A DNA stretch of 64,000 nt from Candidatus Lloydbacteria bacterium RIFCSPHIGHO2_02_FULL_50_18 (GCA_001821395.1 MHLM01000003.1:46151-110150), one strand, 5' to 3'. Shown: positions 1-8,372, counted from the first letter of the stretch. A program made the numbers and translations. Notes: generated by a model from the letters alone, not told the origin.

Positions 1-226
1 ATGTGGGAAATATTGTATCATCCAAGGCTATGAAAGGCGCCTGGGTGTATGCTGACCCCATCCTTTGATGCTTCATTTTTTGAATGGAAGAGCAGTCGGG
101 AAACGTATCTCTGTAGTGTTTGTGAGCTAGCATGTACGGCGGATGACAGAATTTAGCCAGCATTTACTTAATATTTTATGTGTGGTACTGTTTTTCGAGC
201 AATAAGCACATTAACTGGAGAAAATT

Positions 227-1030
227 ATGAACGATCTCGACTATATCAAAAAACTTCCATTGGCATACCTGAAATACCTTCCGCGCATCACCGGTCACGC
301 ACTTGTCCTTGGGGGTAGTGGTGGGATCGGCAGTGAGATCGTGCCCGCTCTTGTCGCATACGGTGCAAGTGCGGTCTCTGTCGCGTATGGTCGGAATAAA
401 GCGGCTGCAGAAGCATTGCAGAAAGAATTGCGCGCGGCAAGGGTCACATGTTACATCGGCGCAGTCGATCCGCTTGATGAGAAGAGCTTCAGCGCATTTC
501 TTGACGATGCCGTCCGCGCAGTCGGTGAGGAGATCAGTGTTGCAGTCAATTCCATCGGCTTTTCGCCGAATACTCCGCTTGAAGAACAGACACTTGAAGA
601 ACGGCGGAAAGTGTTCGACGTGAATGTCCATGGCACCGCACTTACATCGCGCTTGATCTTGGCGCGAATGAAGGAAAAGGGTATCGGAGCAAAAGGCTCG
701 CTTGTCCTCATTACGTCGTCGAACGGTATCAATTCGCAGGCATCGTATTCATCGCACTACGATGAGTCGAAGGCGGCACTCATTCCGATGATCAAGAACC
801 TTGCGGAGTTTTATGCGCCGATCCGCGTGAACGGAGTTGCTCCTGGTTGGGTAGAGACTGCAATGAATGACACACTTCCACCTGGAGAGCGCGAAAAGGA
901 AACGGCAAAGATATTCCTCAATCGTTATGCCGATCCCGCCGAGGTCGCCTCATTCGTCGCGTTCATCTCAAGTTCCGGTGGAACGTTCATCAATAATGAA
1001 AATTACAAGATCGACGGCGGTACGCGCTGA
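227..1030 (+). CDS. short-chain dehydrogenase/reductase (SDR) family oxidoreductase
   Basis: 267 aa. N-terminal Rossmann glycine motif (LVLGGSGGIGSEI). SDR-like length and central S...YxxxK-type region. Confidence 0.7.
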   Translation: MNDLDYIKKLPLAYLKYLPRITGHALVLGGSGGIGSEIVPALVAYGASAVSVAYGRNKAAAEALQKELRAARVTCYIGAVDPLDEKSFSAFLDDAVRAVGEEISVAVNSIGFSPNTPLEEQTLEERRKVFDVNVHGTALTSRLILARMKEKGIGAKGSLVLITSSNGINSQASYSSHYDESKAALIPMIKNLAEFYAPIRVNGVAPGWVETAMNDTLPPGEREKETAKIFLNRYADPAEVASFVAFISSSGGTFINNENYKIDGGTR

Positions 1031-1041
1031 TCGATATATTG

Positions 1042-1066
1042 AAAGCCCTCTTCGGAGGGCTTTTTT
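1042..1066 (+). terminator. Rho-independent terminator after SDR gene
   Basis: GC hairpin gccctc-ttcg-gagggc followed by TTTTTT. Confidence 0.8.
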
Positions 1067-1091
1067 GTGACCCTCGTGCCACTTGCATTTT

Positions 1092-1487
1092 TTATAGGGT
1101 TTGGATAATGTTGGTGAATTTTTGTCCGAAGGTTCTCATCTCGATCAGCCTGTGCTCGTCCATCAAGTCGACGATCGCCCCAAGGTCGCCAGCATTTCTG
1201 CTTAAGCGATCCGGGTGCCACGCAAGGATGGCGTTAAACTTGCCCGCCTTGAGGTCATTAATCAGCTCATTGAAGACAGGGCGTTGCCCGGTGCTTTTTG
1301 CCGAGTGTGATTCACGCTTGATGTCGACCACATCAAGCCCCTCCAGTTGTGCCAACTGGAGCATCTCTTTGGCTTGGGAATCGATGGAAAGGGCTTGTTG
1401 TTCGTCCGATTCCGTCGACCTTCTAGCGTATAAACAGTATTTAATTTTTGGCTCGTCAGAGCCCTCTAGCGGGTTTGTATTTTTCAT
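1092..1487 (-). pseudogene. serine recombinase/resolvase N-terminal catalytic domain fragment; C-terminal helix E and DNA-binding domain absent
   Basis: YARRSTESDEQ active-site serine motif and DRLSRN motif. ORF stops after about 130 aa, where the E-helix would begin. No SD. Confidence 0.55.
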
Positions 1488-1551
1488 ACACCACAATGAA
1501 TGACAGAACCCTCCCAGAGAGTCCAGGAAGGGTAGAATAGGTAAAAACAAA

Positions 1552-1581
1552 AGCCACCCGATGAGGGTGGCCTTGTTTTTT
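1552..1581. terminator. bidirectional intrinsic terminator
   Basis: gccaccc-gatgag-ggtggc hairpin with T-runs on both strands. Confidence 0.6.
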
Positions 1582-1589
1582 GTGAGAAA

Positions 1590-2783
1590 TTACAGTCCTC
1601 GTTCAAGTACTGCAATACGCGCAATGTTGTTGCAGAGTTTCCATGTTGCCTGGTCTTTACCAAGCTTGGTTGGATTTCGCATCTCTTTCGCTTGCTCACC
1701 GACAGTTTTTGCCAGCTCATCGGCAAGCGAGCGAAAAACCTTTATTGGGTCGTCCTTCCAGATCGCCTTATCTCCCTCAACTTTCACGAGATTGCGGAAT
1801 GCCGCTAGTACGGGATAGATGAAAGCACTTGGTATTCTATAGTTCGCCTCACTTGAGTTGAAGATAAGTTCTTCATTAGCCATTTTGGGGCGGTTATTGA
1901 TCTGTATCACTCCAGTTAAGGCGCCAAATTTCCCACCGGCAGCTTTATTGTAAGCCTCAGGAAGTTCTCTGTAGATCGTGTCACGTAATTCGAGAATTCT
2001 TGGAATGAGCGGGACATACTTCATCAGGGTGGCTCGATAATTTTTGAAGTGTTCGATCACGTTTGATTTCTGCGAATATGCCATTATTGGATGATGTTCT
2101 TGGTCAAAATGATCGACATCGAAACATACGAGATAGGAAAGAATCTCCTTGATGTCCACATCCTTTGCTTCACCCGTTTTTTCGTCAATCTCATATTCTT
2201 TGTAGGCAATTCGATTTGCATATGGCTTGTCTTTGACTACCTGCTTGATCTCTTCAAAATGCTGATTCAGCTCCTCAAGGCTTTCGGACTTTACTTGAGC
2301 GGAGGTATTACGCGCGAGCACGATCTCAACTGCGTCATCTAGATTTTCAATCCCTTCAATAATTTCGATGCGAACACAGGCATTGATATCCTTTAACTCA
2401 TCTGGATTTGCACTATGGACGAAGTTTTGCAGAACACGGTATGTATGCCCGCCATCCAGTAGGCCGTGACGAGTTGAATCAACTAATTCAAGACTCACCT
2501 CGCCTGTCTTGTTGTCGTATTCGGCCTTGTCAACAAGCAAGGTAATACCGCGATTGCGGAAAAGAAATTGGTCAGGATTGTTTTCGAGTGATTTCTGAAT
2601 CTTCTTGCTGACCCCAGAAGTGATCTTGGGGTCACGCGGATTAATTTTTCGCCACTCCTCTACTTCAGCGGGTAAGTTAACGATGTTTGCTACTGCGATA
2701 TATGATCGGGCCACTGTTTCGTCATGTGGACTCTCGATTCTTCTGAAAGATGCAACTGGAAATTTAATAATTGTGCTTTTCAT
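1590..2783 (-). CDS. defense-island protein, possibly AIPR (abortive-infection phage-resistance) family; contains a DGGH(T) ParB/DGQHR-like motif
   Basis: About 397 aa ORF adjacent to and divergent from the R-M genes. Motif LLDGGHTYRVL. Family call is tentative; no search possible. Confidence 0.4.
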   Translation of the reverse strand: MKSTIIKFPVASFRRIESPHDETVARSYIAVANIVNLPAEVEEWRKINPRDPKITSGVSKKIQKSLENNPDQFLFRNRGITLLVDKAEYDNKTGEVSLELVDSTRHGLLDGGHTYRVLQNFVHSANPDELKDINACVRIEIIEGIENLDDAVEIVLARNTSAQVKSESLEELNQHFEEIKQVVKDKPYANRIAYKEYEIDEKTGEAKDVDIKEILSYLVCFDVDHFDQEHHPIMAYSQKSNVIEHFKNYRATLMKYVPLIPRILELRDTIYRELPEAYNKAAGGKFGALTGVIQINNRPKMANEELIFNSSEANYRIPSAFIYPVLAAFRNLVKVEGDKAIWKDDPIKVFRSLADELAKTVGEQAKEMRNPTKLGKDQATWKLCNNIARIAVLERGL

Positions 2784-3087
2784 ACTGTGTATGGCTAAGC
2801 GAATAAATGGGCAAAATAAAAACATGCCCGGTGCGCATGCTTAGCAGTCGTCTATGAAAAATATTCATTAGGCTGAGCTAAATGTTGGTCGAGATCTCTC
2901 TACGGCCCTCCACAGCTTTCACTACTGGAGTCAGTGTGCGTACATCACTGATTTCATTAGCCTACACCCGTAGCTGGGCTGACGTCAATGAATAACCAAA
3001 CATCCTCTAGAGAGCCAAGAATAAAGGGCAAAAAGCCCATAATTGTCCCCATTTTTCTTAATTTTTTCCTACTTAATTTGATCCGAT

Positions 3088-3098
3088 GTTGCTATAAT
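3088..3098 (+). promoter_or_regulatory. extended -10 promoter element (TGcTATAAT) for methyltransferase gene, short leader
   Basis: tgcTATAAT ends 17 nt upstream of the ATG at 3116. No SD. Confidence 0.4.
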
Positions 3099-3115
3099 TA
3101 GGATACGATTTTTGC

Positions 3116-5041
3116 ATGAGGCTTCTTGAACAACACAAAATTGCTCCCCGCATTTCTGCTTCTCAGGAGAGTGTTTTTGTCACTCGACCACTTCTTAAGT
3201 GGGCGGGAGGGAAAACACAACTGCTTGATGAGCTTCTTCCTAAACTTCCAGATGAGTATGGTCGGTTTATAGAACCGTTCATTGGTGGTGGAGCTTTATT
3301 TTTCAAAGTTAAGCCCAGAAACGGAATAATCGCAGACAGTAACCCGGAACTAGTAAACATGTATCGCTCAGTTGCGGAGAATGTTACTGCTGTCATTGAG
3401 CACCTCACGCGCTATAAGAATACGGAAGAGATGTTTTATAAAGTGCGGGCGCAAGACTGGGGTAATCTTTCTCCAGAGGAAGCAGCCGCACGTACCATCT
3501 ATCTGAATCGCACCTGCTTTAATGGGCTGTATCGAGTCAATAAAAAAGGACAATTCAACGTACCGTATGGTAGATATACGAATCCGCGAATAGTCGACGT
3601 AGAAGGATTAATATCTGCATCTCAGCTTTTGCAGAATACCAAAATAATCTGTGGTGACTACAAGAGCGTGTTGCGCGAAGAAGCACGTGCTGGTGATTTT
3701 ATCTTTCTTGATCCTCCCTATTTGCCCATATCAGAATATGCAGACTTCAAGAGATACACCAAGGAGCAATTTTATGAAGAGGACCACGTGGAACTAGCAG
3801 AAGAAGTACGACGCCTTCATGACTTGGGATGTCACGTTGTTTTAACAAACTCGAATCATCCGTTGGTGCATGAGCTGTATCAAGGATTTGAGATAGAGGT
3901 AATTCAATCAAGGCGCAACATCAGTTCAAATGCAAAGAGTAGAACAGGGGAGGACGTAATTGTCACAGCAATACCTAGGCACCGCTTCAATAAGAGACTC
4001 ATAATTACTCCACAACCTGAACAATTACTGAAGTACCCATCAACAAGATACATGGGATCGAAGAATAAATTGCTAGATCAAATCTGGGCAGTTGCTTCAC
4101 AGTTTAATTTTGATACTGCTGTGGACCTATTTTCGGGATCCGGCATAGTTGGCTATATGTTTAAGGCGCATGGCAAAGAAGTGCTATCAAATGACTATAT
4201 GACGATGTCTGCCGTTTTTGCAAAGGCCATGGTGGAGAATAATAATGTTCGTCTCACGGAGAAAGATATAAATGCACTACTCAAGTCACATCGTGCGGTC
4301 GATCGTTTTGTCCAAGAAACTTTCGGAGGATTGTATTTTACCGACGAAGAAAACAAGCTCATTGATATCGTCAGGTCTAATGTAAAAAAACTGAAAAACC
4401 CGCACAAGAGAGCAATAGCAATGTCTGCGTTGATACGAGCGTGTGTCAAAAAAAGGCCACGAGGTATTTTTACTTATGTTGGACACAGGTATGATGACGG
4501 ACGCCGTGATCTCTCCATCTCTTTTGAGCAACAGTTCGTTGAGGCAATACAGGCCATCAATGCTTCAATCTTCGACAACGGAAAGAAGAACAAGGCACGA
4601 CAGGGTGATGCCATGAGCATTAATACCGGACATCCTGGCTTGGTTTACATTGATCCTCCATACTTTAGTCCATTTTCTGACAATGAATATGTGCGCCGGT
4701 ATCATTTTGTTGAGGGGTTGGCCCGCGATTGGAAGGGTGTTGAAATTCAAGAGCACACACTAACAAAGAAGTTTAAAAACTACCCCACTCCCTTTTCATC
4801 AAGAAATGGTGCATATGATGCTTTTGATCTTCTATTCAAGCGTTTTCGCAATAGTATTTTAATCGTTTCGTATTCTTCAAACAGCCTCCCCACGCTTGAT
4901 GAGATGGTTGCACTTATGGCAAAACATAAGCGACATGTCGAAGTCATACCCGTTGATTATAAATATTCGATCGGCAACCAAGGGCATAAAGTTAACGATA
5001 ACCGGAATAACGTTAAAGAATACTTGTTTGTTGGATACTAA
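3116..5041 (+). CDS. Type IIS-style fused two-domain N6-adenine DNA methyltransferase (M.FokI-like; two Dam/D12-class domains)
   Basis: 641 aa. Domain 1: LLKWAGGKTQLLDEL, FIGGGALFF, LDPPY. Domain 2: YMGSKNKLL, FSGSGIVGY, IDPPYFSP. The architecture and the roughly 640-aa length are those of M.FokI. Confidence 0.85.
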   Translation: MRLLEQHKIAPRISASQESVFVTRPLLKWAGGKTQLLDELLPKLPDEYGRFIEPFIGGGALFFKVKPRNGIIADSNPELVNMYRSVAENVTAVIEHLTRYKNTEEMFYKVRAQDWGNLSPEEAAARTIYLNRTCFNGLYRVNKKGQFNVPYGRYTNPRIVDVEGLISASQLLQNTKIICGDYKSVLREEARAGDFIFLDPPYLPISEYADFKRYTKEQFYEEDHVELAEEVRRLHDLGCHVVLTNSNHPLVHELYQGFEIEVIQSRRNISSNAKSRTGEDVIVTAIPRHRFNKRLIITPQPEQLLKYPSTRYMGSKNKLLDQIWAVASQFNFDTAVDLFSGSGIVGYMFKAHGKEVLSNDYMTMSAVFAKAMVENNNVRLTEKDINALLKSHRAVDRFVQETFGGLYFTDEENKLIDIVRSNVKKLKNPHKRAIAMSALIRACVKKRPRGIFTYVGHRYDDGRRDLSISFEQQFVEAIQAINASIFDNGKKNKARQGDAMSINTGHPGLVYIDPPYFSPFSDNEYVRRYHFVEGLARDWKGVEIQEHTLTKKFKNYPTPFSSRNGAYDAFDLLFKRFRNSILIVSYSSNSLPTLDEMVALMAKHKRHVEVIPVDYKYSIGNQGHKVNDNRNNVKEYLFVGY

Positions 5042-5061
5042 AGATATAGGATTGTGAAATC

Positions 5062-6810
5062 ATGTCAGGAGTATGGAATATAGGAAATACCACAGTTCGC
5101 AACCCCAAAAGAATTGAAATGGGACTACGCCTACTCCACGAAGGTGGATTCTTGGGCAACCTTGAGGGAGAGGAAAATGAAATTAAACTTACCGACGCAC
5201 TGGTGCAGTCTGGGGTTGTTGATTCCGCCTCTAAAGAAAAGAGTTCTGCTTGGCTGGGTCGCAAGTGGAGAAATGTGATGGTGAAGCTGGGCTTTATTAC
5301 CGACAAGGCATATCGAATAGAAGGAAAAGCTGTATCTCACAGTAAAATATTCACAGAAATAGGTGCGGATATGAATGCTTACTCTCTTACTCCCGCAGGG
5401 GAGAGGTTGGTAATGGCAAAGACGCTTGGAGAAGTGCAAGATGTTTTCTTGCAACAACTGTATCGACACCAATTGCCAAATCCTCTTGAAAAGAAAGTTC
5501 CCAAAGACGCACCACCCATGCGACCCTTTGTGCTCCTGCTTGATGTCCTGCTTAGCTTGCAGAACGACGATGCTGGGATTTCCCAGACGGAAACAGCAAT
5601 ATTTATACAAGAAATACAAAGCCACACTCAGGACACGGGAGTAAAGATAGCCATGAAGATTATTGCTTACAGAAAAAAGAGAGGAATGTTGTCTTCAAGG
5701 AGGGAAAAACTAATCTTTGACAAGGAACTTTTGAGCGAAGTTTCAACAAGGGCGAAGGTCAAACTACTGACTCCTCGTGACTATGCCGATACCACAATTA
5801 GATATTTTTCCATGACAGGGCTTTTTGAAGTTCATGGATCCCGGATGTGTATCAAAGCTGAAAAAAGAAACGTTGCAGAGGAATTAGTAAAGAGCTCACA
5901 AGATCTTTTTGTAATTACTGACCCCGTTCAGTATCTCAAGGAGTTTTATGTTGGAACTGGGTTGCCAACCGATAACACGAGGGTGTTAAACGAGGAGCTT
6001 GCTGCGCTCAAAGAAATAGCACATGAATTAAAAATCAAAACCAAGGCTACGGGAGAAAAAGATCCCAACAGGTTAAAGGCGGAAAAATATAAACTTGAAG
6101 AAGATATTTTGTTTGCCAAAGAGGAGCAATTTGCACTTTTGCAACAGAATCCTGATCAGGTTGAAGACATAATCTCGTCCCTGTCTAAGATAGCTACAAG
6201 TGATCGCGACTTTTTGCGCAGCCTCGTGGATCTCCCCGCTTATCTAGAGTGGATTGTTTGGAGAGGATTTTTGTCTGTTGATCATATTACGGTCCCAACA
6301 AAAGAAACACGTGGCTTTCCTGTTGATTCCGATTTGCAGCCAAGATATCCTGCCCCAGGGGGTAGACCGGATATGTCCTTTGAGTTTTTGGACTACAGTC
6401 TTGTTGTCGAAGTGACATTAACCACCTCCACTCGACAATATATTGCCGAGTGTGAGCCAGTAAGAAGACATGTTGCCAACGGAAAAGGTGGAAAGGAGAC
6501 ACTCGGAATTTTTATTGCTCCCACCCTCGACAATAACTTTCTCCATAAAGTGCGAGAGCACTTCCGTGGTGACGAGCTAATAATGCTAAAGATTTTACCG
6601 CTCACGATTTCACATTTTGTTCGCTTGCTTGAGGTACACAAGTCCACATCCATTACGCCCGACGACGTTAAGGATCTAATCTTGAGGGTCAATAGTAGTG
6701 AATCCTCAAATGGTCTTGAGTGGAAGAAGCATATTGAGCAGACTTTTGATGAATGGTTACAAGAACATGGAGCAGTCGATGCTGTGAGAGGAAAGGTCGT
6801 GGCGGCGTAG
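5062..6810 (+). CDS. Type IIS restriction endonuclease, FokI-like (N-terminal recognition region, C-terminal PD-(D/E)xK cleavage domain)
   Basis: 582 aa (FokI is 587 aa). C-terminus GGRPDMSFEFLDYSLVVEVT aligns by eye to FokI RKPDGAIY...DYGVIVDTK. The downstream AECEPVRRHV segment matches ADEMQRYVEE. It sits immediately after the two-domain methyltransferase. Confidence 0.6.
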   Translation: MSGVWNIGNTTVRNPKRIEMGLRLLHEGGFLGNLEGEENEIKLTDALVQSGVVDSASKEKSSAWLGRKWRNVMVKLGFITDKAYRIEGKAVSHSKIFTEIGADMNAYSLTPAGERLVMAKTLGEVQDVFLQQLYRHQLPNPLEKKVPKDAPPMRPFVLLLDVLLSLQNDDAGISQTETAIFIQEIQSHTQDTGVKIAMKIIAYRKKRGMLSSRREKLIFDKELLSEVSTRAKVKLLTPRDYADTTIRYFSMTGLFEVHGSRMCIKAEKRNVAEELVKSSQDLFVITDPVQYLKEFYVGTGLPTDNTRVLNEELAALKEIAHELKIKTKATGEKDPNRLKAEKYKLEEDILFAKEEQFALLQQNPDQVEDIISSLSKIATSDRDFLRSLVDLPAYLEWIVWRGFLSVDHITVPTKETRGFPVDSDLQPRYPAPGGRPDMSFEFLDYSLVVEVTLTTSTRQYIAECEPVRRHVANGKGGKETLGIFIAPTLDNNFLHKVREHFRGDELIMLKILPLTISHFVRLLEVHKSTSITPDDVKDLILRVNSSESSNGLEWKKHIEQTFDEWLQEHGAVDAVRGKVVAA

Positions 6811-6818
6811 ATTAAAAA

Positions 6819-6846
6819 ACAGACCACCCATTAATGGGCGGTCTGC
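6819..6846 (+). terminator. terminator after R-M operon
   Basis: cagaccaccca-ttaa-tgggcggtctg hairpin with one mismatch. T-run slightly downstream. Confidence 0.5.
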
Positions 6847-6871
6847 TCTGCTCCGGTTTTTGTGGAAATAA

Positions 6872-7147
6872 CTACAATCCACGCTCAAGAACGGCAATGC
6901 GAGCACGCTTTCAGACAATGGGTTCGGCCTACGTGTTTTTGATGGCGCGGTAGAAATTCACGATTCGACGATCGCGGGTAACGAAACGGGCATAATGAAT
7001 ACAGATATTGATATGGTGGTTGACGCCACAAGGAATTATTGGGGAGACGCTGACGGGCCGACGCTTTCGGGTGAAGCAGCTGATGGTGACAGCATCTCGG
7101 AAAATGTTTTGACCGAAGGTTTCCTCGTCGCTCCGCCGATGATCTAA
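6872..7147 (+). pseudogene. 3' remnant of a parallel beta-helix (PbH1) repeat protein gene, no start codon
   Basis: Open frame reads ...NGNASTLSDNGFGLRVFDGAVEIHDSTIAGNETGIMNTDIDMVVDATRNYWGDADG...PPMI*. A stop codon lies just upstream and no upstream start is present. Confidence 0.45.
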
Positions 7148-7272: not shown

Positions 7273-7521
7273 GTGATGAAATCAAAAGGATGGGGACTTG
7301 AGTTGATCGGGGCGTATGGAATGGTGATGATACTCGGAGCGTATTTTTTGACGTCTTTTAATTATGTTCTTGCCGATAATCTCTGGTATCAATTGATGAA
7401 TCTTACGGGTGGTATGGCTTTTGTGTACTACACGCTCACGAAAAAGGCGTGGGCGTCCCTCGGGGTCAACTCGGTGTGGGTCATCATCGCCGCCGTCAGT
7501 CTCTGGAAGATGTTCATGTAG
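7273..7521 (+). CDS. small hydrophobic membrane protein, unknown function
   Basis: 82 aa with 2-3 predicted TM helices. The antisense ORF looks like noise. Confidence 0.45.
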   Translation: MMKSKGWGLELIGAYGMVMILGAYFLTSFNYVLADNLWYQLMNLTGGMAFVYYTLTKKAWASLGVNSVWVIIAAVSLWKMFM

Positions 7522-7595
7522 CCAAGCGCTCGGCATTTAGGTTGCAATGAACCGGATACCCTACTTGAGGACTTGAGACGTAGCACAAAATTTTA

Positions 7596-7635
7596 AAAGT
7601 ACTATTTATTTGCTATAGCAAATAAATAGTACTTT
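7596..7635. repeat. perfect 40-bp palindrome (arms AAAGTACTATTTA... / ...TAAATAGTACTTT)
   Basis: aaagtactatttatttgcta|tagcaaataaatagtacttt read directly. Lies between convergent genes, 90 bp past the stop of the PaaX-like gene. Confidence 0.9.
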
Positions 7636-7724
7636 CACTTTTGGAGATGAGCACGGGAAGGGGGAGGACGTAATGCTCTTGGTTTGTGGTTGTCGGAGGA
7701 CTGCATCTGCTGTCGTGGGTAGAG

Positions 7725-8372
7725 TTATTGTAAATGAAAGTGGCGGATGAGTTCCGGTGCATTATCGATATCGGTTGCCGTCATAAAGCGGATGTGTCGC
7801 CGGGCATTGTAGAATTCCATTATGTATTCGATCTCGCTTGCGCAAGGGTAGGGGTGCACGAAGACTGATTTTTGAAACTCAGAGAATCCCATGTTCTTGA
7901 AATGCATGCGGAGCGCATCGCGAACGCCTTTCAGATTTTCCGGAACATCAAACATCACCACTCGCCATTTTTTGTCCCAATAAGGAGGCATTTTGATGAC
8001 CAAGTTATCAAGATCATAACGGAGTGCCACTTCCTTACCCTCCTTTGACAGGACAAGAGTGAATGTGCCGTCCTTATTGCTTTTTGTGCTTACGAGCTTG
8101 GACTTATAGAGATTTTGGATCGCCTGATTGAGCGCCCTACGGTTGATGGCGTTCCACTCTGCCTTCATTGCCCTCGCGACACGAAAGTACTGTTTCGGTG
8201 ATCGTGAGAGCCCGAGTGCCAATCCGCCGAGTAAGAGGAGCAGCACCTTTTGTTGCACATGTCCCACTCGTCTCTTTGAAACGTCGCTCGCTGTACCCAC
8301 CCCCTTCTTTATCTCTGTCTTTCGCATGGTGATTTGTTTGGATATTTTTGTCACACCATTCAATCTTTTCAT
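7725..8372 (-). CDS. PaaX-like transcriptional regulator (N-terminal winged HTH + central Cas2-like domain), short C-terminus
   Basis: 215 aa. Cas2/VapD-like pattern WRVVMFDVPENLKGVRDALRMHFKNMGFSEFQKSVF. Basic helical N-terminus. Confidence 0.5.
   Translation of the reverse strand: MKRLNGVTKISKQITMRKTEIKKGVGTASDVSKRRVGHVQQKVLLLLLGGLALGLSRSPKQYFRVARAMKAEWNAINRRALNQAIQNLYKSKLVSTKSNKDGTFTLVLSKEGKEVALRYDLDNLVIKMPPYWDKKWRVVMFDVPENLKGVRDALRMHFKNMGFSEFQKSVFVHPYPCASEIEYIMEFYNARRHIRFMTATDIDNAPELIRHFHLQ

What the first reader, a model, noticed from the sequence alone, without database searches (positions are those of the whole stretch)
1070..7147. About 5.8-kb AT-richer defense island whose right junction has truncated a beta-helix gene
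Between the SDR-gene terminator (about 1066) and a strong terminator at 6819-6846 lie four genes: a decayed serine recombinase (catalytic domain only), an AIPR-like protein, and a FokI-like M+R pair. Immediately right of the island, a frame reading ...NGNASTLSDNGFGLRVFDGAVEIHDSTIAGNETGIMNTDIDMVVDATRNYWGD...* is open for only about 90 codons, with a stop just upstream and no start. This is the 3' remnant of a parallel beta-helix protein gene, consistent with the island having integrated into and deleted the 5' part of that gene. The recombinase fragment at the opposite edge suggests serine-recombinase-mediated integration followed by decay.
Basis: partly seen in the sequence, partly recalled or inferred. 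Interest (0 to 1): 0.6.

Follow-up and report, generated by a model that had tools for sequence, protein, structure and literature searches.

The report
Defence island truncating a surface-protein gene
A roughly 5.3-kb block of foreign, AT-richer DNA carrying a restriction-modification system and an abortive-infection-type gene has replaced most of a large beta-helix surface-protein gene in a groundwater Candidatus Lloydbacteria genome; this is a well-documented but ordinary example of a mobile defence island.

Summary
Window 1590-6850 is the lowest-GC stretch (42-44% against 49.9%) and the strongest tetranucleotide outlier in the 64 kb.

It encodes three intact genes:
- an AIPR protein
- a fused double D12 adenine methyltransferase
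- a restriction endonuclease of the AlwI family (PF09491), not FokI

At its left edge is a fragment of a large serine recombinase. It keeps only codons ~1-136 of ~450, about two-thirds of the catalytic domain, and its GC is host-like.

At the right edge, 6872-7147 is the 3' remnant of a beta-helix gene. A related Lloydbacteria genome carries an intact 1206-aa orthologue (60% identity over its last 83 residues) at the syntenic position, directly upstream of the same CBU_0592 gene.

The island is a mosaic:
- The methyltransferase-endonuclease (M-R) cassette alone occurs at 80% nucleotide identity in an unrelated context.
- The same recombinase family sits intact beside a homologous M-R cassette in another genome.

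No att-like repeats exceed chance, so recombinase-mediated integration followed by a deletion is plausible but not shown. The neighbouring SDR gene is also missing from the relative, so the history was not a simple one-step insertion.

All components belong to known families. Interest is low to moderate.

The parts
227..1030 (+). SDR (short-chain dehydrogenase) gene. It flanks the island on the left, has host-like composition, and is absent from the syntenic locus of the closest relative.
   Evidence: Pfam adh_short_C2 E 1e-38. GC 52.4%. No tblastn match in L009-L013.
1041..1066 (+). Intrinsic terminator hairpin of the SDR gene (AAAGCCCTC-TTCG-GAGGGCTTT followed by a T run).
   Evidence: Read from the sequence. 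ViennaRNA fold about -17 kcal/mol.
1067..1109 (.). Left junction zone, about 40 nt of unassigned origin. It includes five non-homologous read-through codons (IIQTL) and the stop of the recombinase ORF.
   Evidence: Recombinase homology ends at 1110. No match to any fetched locus.
1110..1487 (-). 5' remnant of a large serine recombinase gene, codons about 1-136 of about 446-500. The catalytic Ser context YARRS is kept. The alpha-E helix, recombinase domain and zinc ribbon are missing.
   Evidence: Pfam Resolvase positions 3-92 of 145. NCBIfam CcrB positions 9-103 of 542. 69-71% identity to relatives that continue into PF07508 and Zn_ribbon_recom. No C-terminal part is found in the window or in the 9.8 kb upstream.
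1550..1574 (.). Bidirectional terminator hairpin between the AIPR stop and the recombinase start. It is roughly the left edge of the low-GC block.
   Evidence: -20 and -21.5 kcal/mol on the two strands.
1590..2825 (-). AIPR (abortive-infection phage-resistance type) gene, apparently intact. Gene callers start it at 2783, giving 397 aa.
   Evidence: Pfam AIPR E 8.4e-31, profile 4-301 of 308. Weak PADLOC AbiU hit. GC 43.7%.
3040..3115 (+). Conserved promoter and leader of the M-R cassette (extended -10, TGCTATAAT). It forms the left end of the independently mobile cassette.
   Evidence: 80% nucleotide identity to L123 begins at 3040.
3116..5041 (+). Fused double N6-adenine DNA methyltransferase (two D12-class domains). 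The N-terminal half is Dam-like. Motifs: FxGxG at residues 55 and 339, DPPY at 199 and 513.
   Evidence: Pfam MethyltransfD12, two stretches, E 3e-88. TIGR00571 dam 284 bits. PADLOC type II MTase model matched end to end, 1136 bits. Motifs.
5062..6810 (+). AlwI-family type IIS restriction endonuclease, intact. The catalytic PD...EVT block lies at residues 435-452.
   Evidence: Pfam RE_AlwI E 4e-66, profile 2-441 of 441. N.BspD6I structures E 5e-30 with the catalytic block conserved. More than 1000 homologues, several named AlwI family.
6820..6845 (.). Strong hairpin after the endonuclease gene. A6 lies upstream and a T5 run lies 7 nt downstream, so it is canonical on the minus strand.
   Evidence: -21.7 and -25.9 kcal/mol.
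6846..6895 (.). Right junction zone, about 50 nt of unassigned origin. It contains the stop TAA at 6869-6871 that closes the beta-helix frame upstream.
   Evidence: Alignment to the L009 beta-helix gene is unconvincing before about 6896-6905.
6896..7147 (+). 3' remnant (last 83 codons plus the stop) of a roughly 1200-aa right-handed beta-helix / lamin-tail-domain surface-protein gene.
   Evidence: P0002 residues 1124-1206 of 1206, 60% amino-acid and 71% nucleotide identity, at the syntenic position. GC 51%.
7276..7521 (+). CBU_0592-family small membrane protein gene. It is the first intact host gene on the right and the synteny anchor.
   Evidence: NCBIfam NF047864 E 1.4e-10. 69% identity to the gene that follows the intact beta-helix gene in L009.

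Best explanation
What it is. Window about 1110-6895 is a decayed, mosaic integrative defence island in a Candidatus Lloydbacteria (CPR, Parcubacteria) genome. It sits in a variable hot spot between the nickel transporter gene NicO and the NiFe hydrogenase genes.

What it does. The working cargo is two defence modules.
1. A type IIS restriction-modification system. A fused double D12 adenine methyltransferase presumably methylates both strands of an asymmetric site, one domain per strand. An AlwI-family endonuclease has one catalytic site per chain; from what is known of AlwI and MlyI it would bind as a monomer, dimerise transiently and cut a few bases to one side of the site. The site is probably GGATC or something close to it.
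2. A divergently transcribed AIPR gene of the abortive-infection type.

How it probably arrived.
- An element carrying a large serine recombinase at its edge, reading outward, landed in or next to a roughly 1200-codon beta-helix surface-protein gene.
- A later deletion of at least 4 kb then removed the recombinase's 3' two-thirds, the adjacent attachment site and the first ~1120 codons of the beta-helix gene.
- The result is an immobilised island, and the beta-helix gene survives only as an 83-91 codon 3' stump.

Shown versus inferred.
- Shown: the gene identities and their intactness, the foreign composition, the truncations and their coordinates, the intact syntenic orthologue, and the independent mobility of the M-R cassette.
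- Inferred: the order of events, the role of the recombinase, the recognition site and AIPR activity.
For: Composition: AIPR, M and R have 42-44% GC against 49.9% for the window. The block is the lowest-GC stretch and the top tetranucleotide outlier of the 64 kb.

Gene identities.

Beta-helix remnant:
- P0002 (1206 aa) aligns by its last 83 residues to fragment residues 9-91 (E 1.6e-22).
- Its gene lies between NicO and CBU_0592 in L009/L010, which is Ca. Lloydbacteria GFS_12411.
- DNA homology resumes at window 6905 and runs through the shared stop codon into CBU_0592, PaaX_M and the NiFe hydrogenase gene.
- No other piece of the gene is found in the window or in the 9.8 kb upstream.

Hot spot: four genomes have four different contents between NicO and the NiFe hydrogenase gene.

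Recombinase:
- 69-71% identity to large serine recombinases that lie at the edge of prophage or defence cargo and read outward (L118-L122).
- An intact copy lies beside a homologous M-R cassette (57-65% identity) inside a 43% GC block next to 59% GC host genes (L124/L125).
- The window has the same layout: the recombinase fragment is at the edge and reads outward.

Parallel case: L126 has a serine recombinase (only 24% identical), PrimPol cargo and M-M-R ending against a 3' fragment of a comM-like gene (Mg_chelatase profile from position 112 of 207).

Mosaic: window 3040-6770 is 80% identical to L123, which has unrelated flanks.

Recognition site:
- The N-terminal methyltransferase half is Dam-like (284 bits).
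- GGATC/GATCC is the third most depleted of 512 pentamers outside the island (observed/expected 0.79, z -3.7). GAGTC ranks 66th and GATC is enriched at 1.2.
- Literature: AlwI (GGATC 4/5), MlyI and FokI are class I type IIS enzymes that act as homodimers (PMC3017599). AlwI-family endonucleases go together with a fused adenine/Dam methyltransferase (PMC12898733).

Timing: the stump has no internal stop, and its dN/dS against L009 is 0.28, the same as the neighbouring intact CBU_0592 gene. The truncation is therefore recent relative to the species split.
Against: - No att-like direct or inverted repeat exceeds chance at the junctions. The best match is the 8-nt TTTTTGTG, reached by 54 of 300 shuffles. 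Large serine recombinases need only a 2-bp crossover, so this neither supports nor refutes the model.
- The recombinase fragment has host-like GC (49.7-51%), unlike the 43% cargo. It could therefore be a relic of a different, older element.
- The SDR gene lies inside the stretch that differs from the relative, so events other than one insertion plus one deletion are needed, or SDR was lost in the other lineage.
- Only one genome with an intact orthologue was found, and it is distant (dS about 1). No strain of the window's own species lacking the island was found among 17 and 15 contigs.
- In L124 the recombinase is convergent with the endonuclease gene, so the association there may be adjacency of tandem islands rather than cargo of one element.
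- GGATC depletion is modest, and 133 sites remain in 58.7 kb.
Confidence: 0.55

Rival explanations
1. Hot-spot turnover without any role for the recombinase. The stretch between NicO and CBU_0592 is a recombination hot spot, and pieces were swapped in by homologous or illegitimate recombination after DNA uptake. On this reading the AIPR gene, the self-mobile M-R cassette, the SDR gene and an old recombinase relic arrived separately. The beta-helix gene was clipped by one of several unrelated deletions.
For: - Four relatives have four different gene contents at this site.
- The M-R cassette recurs alone with sharp homology edges at 3040 and about 6770.
- The recombinase fragment's GC differs from that of the cargo.
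- SDR is also absent from the relative.
- There are no att repeats.
- 14 SNPs cluster in the NicO-SDR spacer between two assemblies.
Against: - The recombinase fragment sits exactly where, and in the orientation in which, intact relatives sit on cargo-carrying elements.
- The same recombinase family accompanies a homologous M-R cassette elsewhere.
- This reading needs more events than one insertion plus one deletion.
Confidence: 0.3
2. The beta-helix stump is not a relic of a native gene. It arrived as part of the incoming DNA, as a fragment carried over from the element's previous host, or it is a chance open frame.
For: No Pfam or NCBIfam hit for the fragment itself. Word-based search found only the 50-aa ORF of the same genome.
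Against: - The full HMMER scan gives E 1.6e-22 to the exact C-terminus of P0002, plus 329 further hits at E <= 0.001.
- The fragment is contiguous with CBU_0592 exactly as in the relative, and DNA homology runs through the shared stop codon.
- Its GC is host-like at 51%.
Confidence: 0.04
3. The truncated recombinase ORF is not junk. It would be a retained, possibly domesticated catalytic-domain protein, for example a regulator or a dominant-negative inhibitor of incoming related recombinases.
For: - The ORF is open across all 116 homologous codons and keeps the catalytic Ser motif.
- A second population (P0152, SRR3989344) has the same truncated tail IIQTL at 88-90% amino-acid identity with the frame still open.
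Against: - It lacks one-third of the catalytic domain, including the alpha-E helix, and all DNA-binding domains.
- One assembly of the same population carries a 160-bp internal deletion.
- No DNA is available for P0152, so selection cannot be measured.
Confidence: 0.05

Closest known systems
AlwI restriction-modification system (type IIS, GGATC 4/5) and its relatives MlyI, PleI and N.BstNBI/N.BspD6I
   Same: The endonuclease matches Pfam RE_AlwI end to end and aligns to N.BspD6I with the catalytic block conserved. It is paired with a fused double adenine methyltransferase whose first half is Dam-like, as described for AlwI-family systems (PMC12898733). GGATC is depleted in the host DNA.
   Different: The recognition site and cleavage were not tested. 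Identity to the solved N.BspD6I is low, and no sequence of AlwI itself was available for comparison. It occurs in a CPR bacterium.
FokI restriction-modification system
   Same: Same functional class: a type IIS enzyme with one catalytic site per chain that acts as a transient homodimer, plus a two-domain adenine methyltransferase serving an asymmetric site (PMC3017599).
   Different: No FokI family appears among the Pfam hits, which give only RE_AlwI, and no FokI chain appears among the PDB hits at E <= 0.01. It is a different endonuclease family.
Large-serine-recombinase integrative elements that split host genes (SCCmec Ccr elements, SPbeta-type prophages, phiC31-type integrases)
   Same: The N-terminal resolvase-type catalytic domain is most similar to CcrB/CcrC among NCBIfam models. 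Relatives carry PF07508 and the zinc ribbon, and sit at the edge of cargo-carrying islands.
   Different: Here only about 30% of the gene survives, no att sites can be defined, and mobility is lost. NCBIfam scores are far below the Ccr cut-offs (45 against 900 bits), so it is not a Ccr.
AIPR / Abi-type genes of defence islands (Pfam PF10592)
   Same: Full-length match to the AIPR domain, located beside a restriction-modification system in a foreign-composition island.
   Different: No activity or mechanism is established for this member. There is only a weak PADLOC AbiU hit (E 8e-5).

Membership tests
AlwI-family type IIS restriction endonuclease (PF09491) | Full-length match to the family profile above the curated cut-off | tested here: met
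   224 bits against a cut-off of 23.1, profile 2-441 of 441. PADLOC REase_II model 3-563 of 570.
AlwI-family type IIS restriction endonuclease (PF09491) | Conserved C-terminal catalytic block shared with the solved N.BspD6I structure | tested here: met
   GGRPDMSFEFLDYSLVVEVT aligns to GNQPDMEIIYEDFIVLGEVT of 5liz_A.
AlwI-family type IIS restriction endonuclease (PF09491) | Adjacent fused double adenine methyltransferase with a Dam-like half | tested here: met
   641-aa protein with two D12 stretches. TIGR00571 gives 284 bits on residues 24-280. DPPY at 199 and 513. Described as the rule for this family in PMC12898733.
AlwI-family type IIS restriction endonuclease (PF09491) | Recognition of an asymmetric 5-bp site with cleavage outside it | not testable with these tools
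   Indirect evidence only: GGATC/GATCC observed/expected 0.79, rank 3 of 512 pentamers.
FokI restriction endonuclease family | Sequence match to FokI recognition or cleavage domains | tested here: not met
   Pfam lists only RE_AlwI for the endonuclease. No FokI chain among PDB hits at E <= 0.01.
Large serine recombinase | N-terminal resolvase catalytic domain with the nucleophilic serine | tested here: met
   PF00239 E 6e-16. YARRS motif at residue 20 of the 131-aa ORF. Only profile positions 3-92 of 145 are present.
Large serine recombinase | Recombinase domain (PF07508) and zinc ribbon C-terminal to the catalytic domain | tested here: not met
   Absent from the window and from the 9.8 kb upstream. 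Present in relatives 69-71% identical over the N-terminal ~115 residues. The window copy is therefore a gene fragment, not a functional member.
Large serine recombinase | Definable attL and attR flanking the element | tested here: inconclusive
   No repeat exceeds chance. One end is deleted, and these enzymes need only 2 bp of identity.
AIPR (PF10592) | Full-length match to the family profile above the cut-off | tested here: met
   108 bits against a cut-off of 25, profile 4-301 of 308.
AIPR (PF10592) | Protection against phage by abortive infection | not testable with these tools
   Needs experiment.
Right-handed parallel beta-helix protein (PF13229), for the 6872-7147 fragment | Match to the beta-helix profile | tested here: inconclusive
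   The 91-aa fragment alone has no Pfam hit even at E 10. Its full-length orthologue P0002 passes the cut-off (28.4 against 25.9 bits) at residues 1031-1166, overlapping the aligned stretch 1124-1206.
Genomic island | Deviant composition, mobility gene, absence from the syntenic site of relatives | tested here: met
   No tRNA gene is present in the window.

The most novel reading that the evidence does not exclude
One conserved family of large serine recombinases (about 70% identical across Lloydbacteria, Moranbacteria and other Patescibacteria) may be a main vehicle moving restriction-modification and other defence cargo between CPR bacteria. It would often land in, and destroy, large surface-protein genes. 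Its gene may also be inactivated recurrently at one spot: two independent relatives are frameshifted right after the same 'VDP' motif, in opposite directions. A further possibility is that the truncated catalytic-domain ORF is kept for a function, since it is shared with the same tail by a second population.
Probability: 0.1. Interest if true: 0.45.

Novelty: new member of a known kind. Interest (0 to 1): 0.25.

Why it matters
It is a clean, well-bounded example of how defence genes move in CPR bacteria. These bacteria have tiny genomes, mostly lack CRISPR and are thought to rely on restriction-modification (this rests on my own knowledge; I did not check it in the papers read here). The locus shows an M-R cassette behaving as a self-contained mobile module, its repeated company with one recombinase family, and a cost to the host: the loss of a 1200-residue surface protein. 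It also marks the NicO to NiFe hydrogenase interval as a variable hot spot in Lloydbacteria. None of this changes current understanding. Its value is for annotation: the 50-aa and 131-aa 'hypothetical proteins' in the public record are gene stumps.

Tried and rejected
1. The word-indexed homologue search with the 91-aa fragment found only the genome's own 50-aa ORF. Pfam and NCBIfam found nothing. The exhaustive HMMER scan was needed.
2. I looked for an empty site within the species. All 17 contigs with the exact SDR protein and all 15 with the exact CBU_0592 protein carry the same island. The apparent variant L005 is partly a scaffold gap of 10 Ns, plus a 160-bp deletion inside the recombinase fragment.
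3. The metagenome scan with the beta-helix C-terminus found no close relative (best 46% identity).
4. The genome scan with NicO found no genome of the window's own species, only other Lloydbacteria and Parcubacteria.
5. The att search was negative. A 38-nt 71% direct repeat (1120-1157 and 7107-7144) has a 14-of-15 core that my estimate puts at about one chance occurrence in 6.5 kb. The junction-zone test was at chance level. The junction segments match nothing in any fetched locus.
6. The context of P0152, the second truncated recombinase, is not on record.
7. The viral-contig scan with AIPR found nothing.
8. There are no tRNA genes or Rfam families in the window, so it is not a tRNA-targeted island.
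9. I considered that every relative of the recombinase is a short 'catalytic-domain-only' protein, because all 120 listed hits are 229 aa or shorter. I rejected this. The alignment shows they continue into recombinase-domain sequence, and intact 446-499-aa members exist but were not listed. The search tool's candidate step evidently favours short proteins.

Full report
**Source.** The window is part of a 140.7-kb groundwater-metagenome contig; window position 1 is L001 position 9775. NCBI names the 131-aa recombinase ORF as a hypothetical protein of Candidatus Lloydbacteria bacterium RIFCSPHIGHO2_01_FULL (OGZ05625.1). The closest genomes found with the flanking NicO gene are Lloydbacteria and other Parcubacteria. 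The window has no tRNA gene and no Rfam match.

**Observation: genes and signals.** The ORF map, Pfam, NCBIfam and PADLOC scans give this order:
- SDR, 227-1030 (+), with a terminator hairpin at 1041-1066
- a resolvase-domain ORF, 1092-1550 (-)
- a bidirectional hairpin, 1550-1574
- AIPR, 1590-2825 (-)
- a 290-nt divergent spacer
- a 641-aa double D12 methyltransferase, 3116-5041 (+)
- a 582-aa endonuclease, 5062-6810 (+)
- a hairpin, 6820-6845
- a frame open from 6872 to the stop at 7145-7147

A TAA at 6869-6871 closes it upstream, and there is no start codon before ATG 6995.

**Observation: composition.** AIPR, M and R have 42.4-43.9% GC against 49.9% for the window. The lowest-GC 5.75-kb windows and the nine most deviant 2-kb tetranucleotide windows of the whole 64 kb all fall here. 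The recombinase fragment (49.7%) and the beta-helix fragment (51.1%) are host-like, so the compositional island is about 1550-6870.

**Corrections to the gene calls.**
- The endonuclease is AlwI-family (PF09491, E 4e-66, full profile). It aligns to the nicking enzyme N.BspD6I (E 5e-30) with the catalytic block conserved. No FokI family or FokI chain appears among the Pfam or PDB hits.
- FokI, MlyI and AlwI do share a functional class: type IIS, one catalytic site per chain, acting as homodimers (PMC3017599). AlwI-family enzymes are reported to be accompanied always by a fused adenine/Dam methyltransferase (PMC12898733), which is what is seen here. The N-terminal half scores 284 bits on the Dam model. 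Both halves have FxGxG and DPPY motifs.
- Outside the island, GGATC/GATCC is the third most depleted of 512 pentamers (observed/expected 0.79, z -3.7). GAGTC is unremarkable and GATC is enriched. This is modest support for a GGATC-like site.
- The recombinase remnant is smaller than 'catalytic domain only'. Homology covers window 1110-1454, which is Pfam positions 3-92 of 145 and codons about 21-136 of relatives. It is followed by five unrelated codons (IIQTL) and a stop.
- Relatives continue into the alpha-E helix, PF07508 and the zinc ribbon. Intact ones are 446-499 aa. It is therefore the 5' 30% of a large serine recombinase gene.

**The beta-helix fragment.** Word-based search and profile libraries found nothing. 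An exhaustive HMMER scan found 329 proteins at E <= 0.001.
- The best is P0002 (1206 aa). Its residues 1124-1206, the exact C-terminus, are 60% identical to fragment residues 9-91 (E 1.6e-22).
- P0002 has a lamin-tail domain, Ig-like domains and a Beta_helix domain at 1031-1166 that passes Pfam's cut-off.
- Its gene lies in L009, which is identical to L010 from Ca. Lloydbacteria GFS_12411. The order there is ATPase, DHO dehydrogenase, DUF6390, NicO(-), a 195-aa ORF, the beta-helix gene, CBU_0592, then PaaX_M(-) and NiFe hydrogenase(-). This is the window's neighbourhood.
- blastn shows that left-flank homology stops at window -59, inside NicO. It resumes at 6905 and runs through the shared stop codon into CBU_0592 and beyond.
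- No other part of the gene exists in the window or in the 9.8 kb upstream.

The fragment is therefore the 3' stump of a native ~1200-codon gene whose first ~1120 codons are gone. Its dN/dS against the orthologue is 0.28, equal to that of the intact neighbour CBU_0592, and it has no internal stops. The truncation is thus recent relative to the divergence of the two genomes.

**A hot spot.** Between NicO and the NiFe hydrogenase gene the contents differ in each genome:
- L012 has nothing (5 nt).
- L011 has only CBU_0592.
- L009/L010 has the 195-aa ORF, the beta-helix gene, CBU_0592, a LexA / Y-family polymerase pair and PaaX_M.
- The window has SDR, the island, the stump, CBU_0592 and PaaX_M.

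SDR is thus also missing from the only relative that has an intact beta-helix gene. What the comparison strictly shows is replacement of about 4.1 kb by about 7 kb.

**Mobility evidence: the recombinase family.**
- It is 69-71% identical in the N-terminal domain in other Patescibacteria. There it lies at the edge of foreign cargo and reads outward.
- In L118-L121 (Moranbacteria) the cargo is a terminase and ParB-methyltransferase block. In L122 it is a methyltransferase/helicase block with a Shedu-type gene nearby.
- The window fragment has the same position and orientation relative to AIPR-M-R.

**Mobility evidence: association with the M-R cassette.**
- In L124/L125 an intact member of the same recombinase family lies immediately beside an M-R pair homologous to the window's (65% and 57% identity). 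Both are inside a 43% GC block that abuts 59% GC housekeeping genes.
- In L126 an unrelated serine recombinase, PrimPol cargo and an M-M-R set end against a 198-aa 3' fragment of a comM-like gene. This is the same end architecture as here.
- The M-R cassette is mobile on its own. Window 3040-6770, from its promoter to 40 nt before the endonuclease stop, is 80% identical to L123. L123 has unrelated flanks, no AIPR within the 256 nt that the contig holds upstream, and a nuclease gene downstream.

The island is therefore a mosaic.

**Junctions.**
- About 40 nt on the left (1067-1109) and about 50 nt on the right (6846-6895) are unassigned.
- They share nothing beyond an 8-nt TTTTTGTG, reached by 54 of 300 shuffles, and they match no fetched locus.
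- A 38-nt 71% repeat is at the level expected by chance.
- Large serine recombinases need only a 2-bp crossover and one end has been deleted, so this is uninformative.

**Most likely history (inferred).** An element with the recombinase at its left edge integrated in or beside the beta-helix gene near codon 1120. One deletion running from mid-recombinase leftwards then removed the att site and the 5' 3.3 kb of the beta-helix gene, which fixed the island in place. The main rival is piecemeal turnover at a hot spot, with the recombinase fragment as an unrelated relic. That rival is favoured by the fragment's host-like GC, by the SDR difference and by the cassette's independent mobility. I put the two at about 0.55 and 0.3.

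**Population detail.**
- Contigs from several assemblies of related groundwater samples are 99.8-100% identical over the region.
- One carries a 160-bp deletion inside the recombinase fragment.
- A second population (P0152, SRR3989344) has the same truncated tail at 88-90% amino-acid identity, so the truncation is not brand new.

**Verdict.**
- Every component belongs to a known family, and the overall phenomenon, a mosaic defence island that has disrupted a host gene, is familiar. This is a new member of a known kind, and I score interest at 0.25.

Noticed in passing
L119:8541-8650 and L122:8541-8638 (relatives of the window recombinase): In two unrelated genomes the homologous large serine recombinase gene is split into two overlapping ORFs. 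The frameshift falls at the same alignment position, right after 'VDP' and before 'RAPI(I/V)'. It is +1 in one genome and -1 in the other. The 209-aa product recurs in four independent assemblies. Many other listed relatives also end at residues 183-229.
   Followed up: partly
window 90-175 (NicO-SDR spacer): 14 of the 16 differences between the window and contig L003 (8971 aligned bases) cluster in this 86-bp intergenic stretch. This suggests a small recombination patch or a hypervariable regulatory region.
   Followed up: no
window 7594-7637: A 44-nt near-perfect palindrome (20-bp stem, AT-rich; 40 nt of it, 7596-7635, match their own reverse complement exactly) lies between the convergent CBU_0592 and PaaX_M-like genes. 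It is probably a bidirectional terminator.
   Followed up: no
window 7725-8372 (-): A 215-aa protein with a PaaX central Cas2-like domain (PF20803, E 7e-20) and weak Cas2 hits. It is conserved at 81% identity in the relative L009, and no CRISPR or cas genes were noticed nearby.
   Followed up: no
L126:11741-12337: A 198-aa ORF is the 3' fragment of a comM-like Mg-chelatase gene (profile from position 112 of 207). It directly abuts the endonuclease gene of a serine-recombinase/PrimPol element, an independent case of the same end architecture.
   Followed up: partly
window 3070-3095: The conserved promoter region of the M-R cassette (extended -10, TGCTATAAT) contains a GATCC site at 3080. If GGATC is the system's target, its own methylation could tune expression.
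   Followed up: no
L009:14750-16801: The relative carries a LexA-like repressor plus a Y-family polymerase (IMS) pair in the same NicO to hydrogenase interval. This is another accessory cassette in the hot spot.
   Followed up: no
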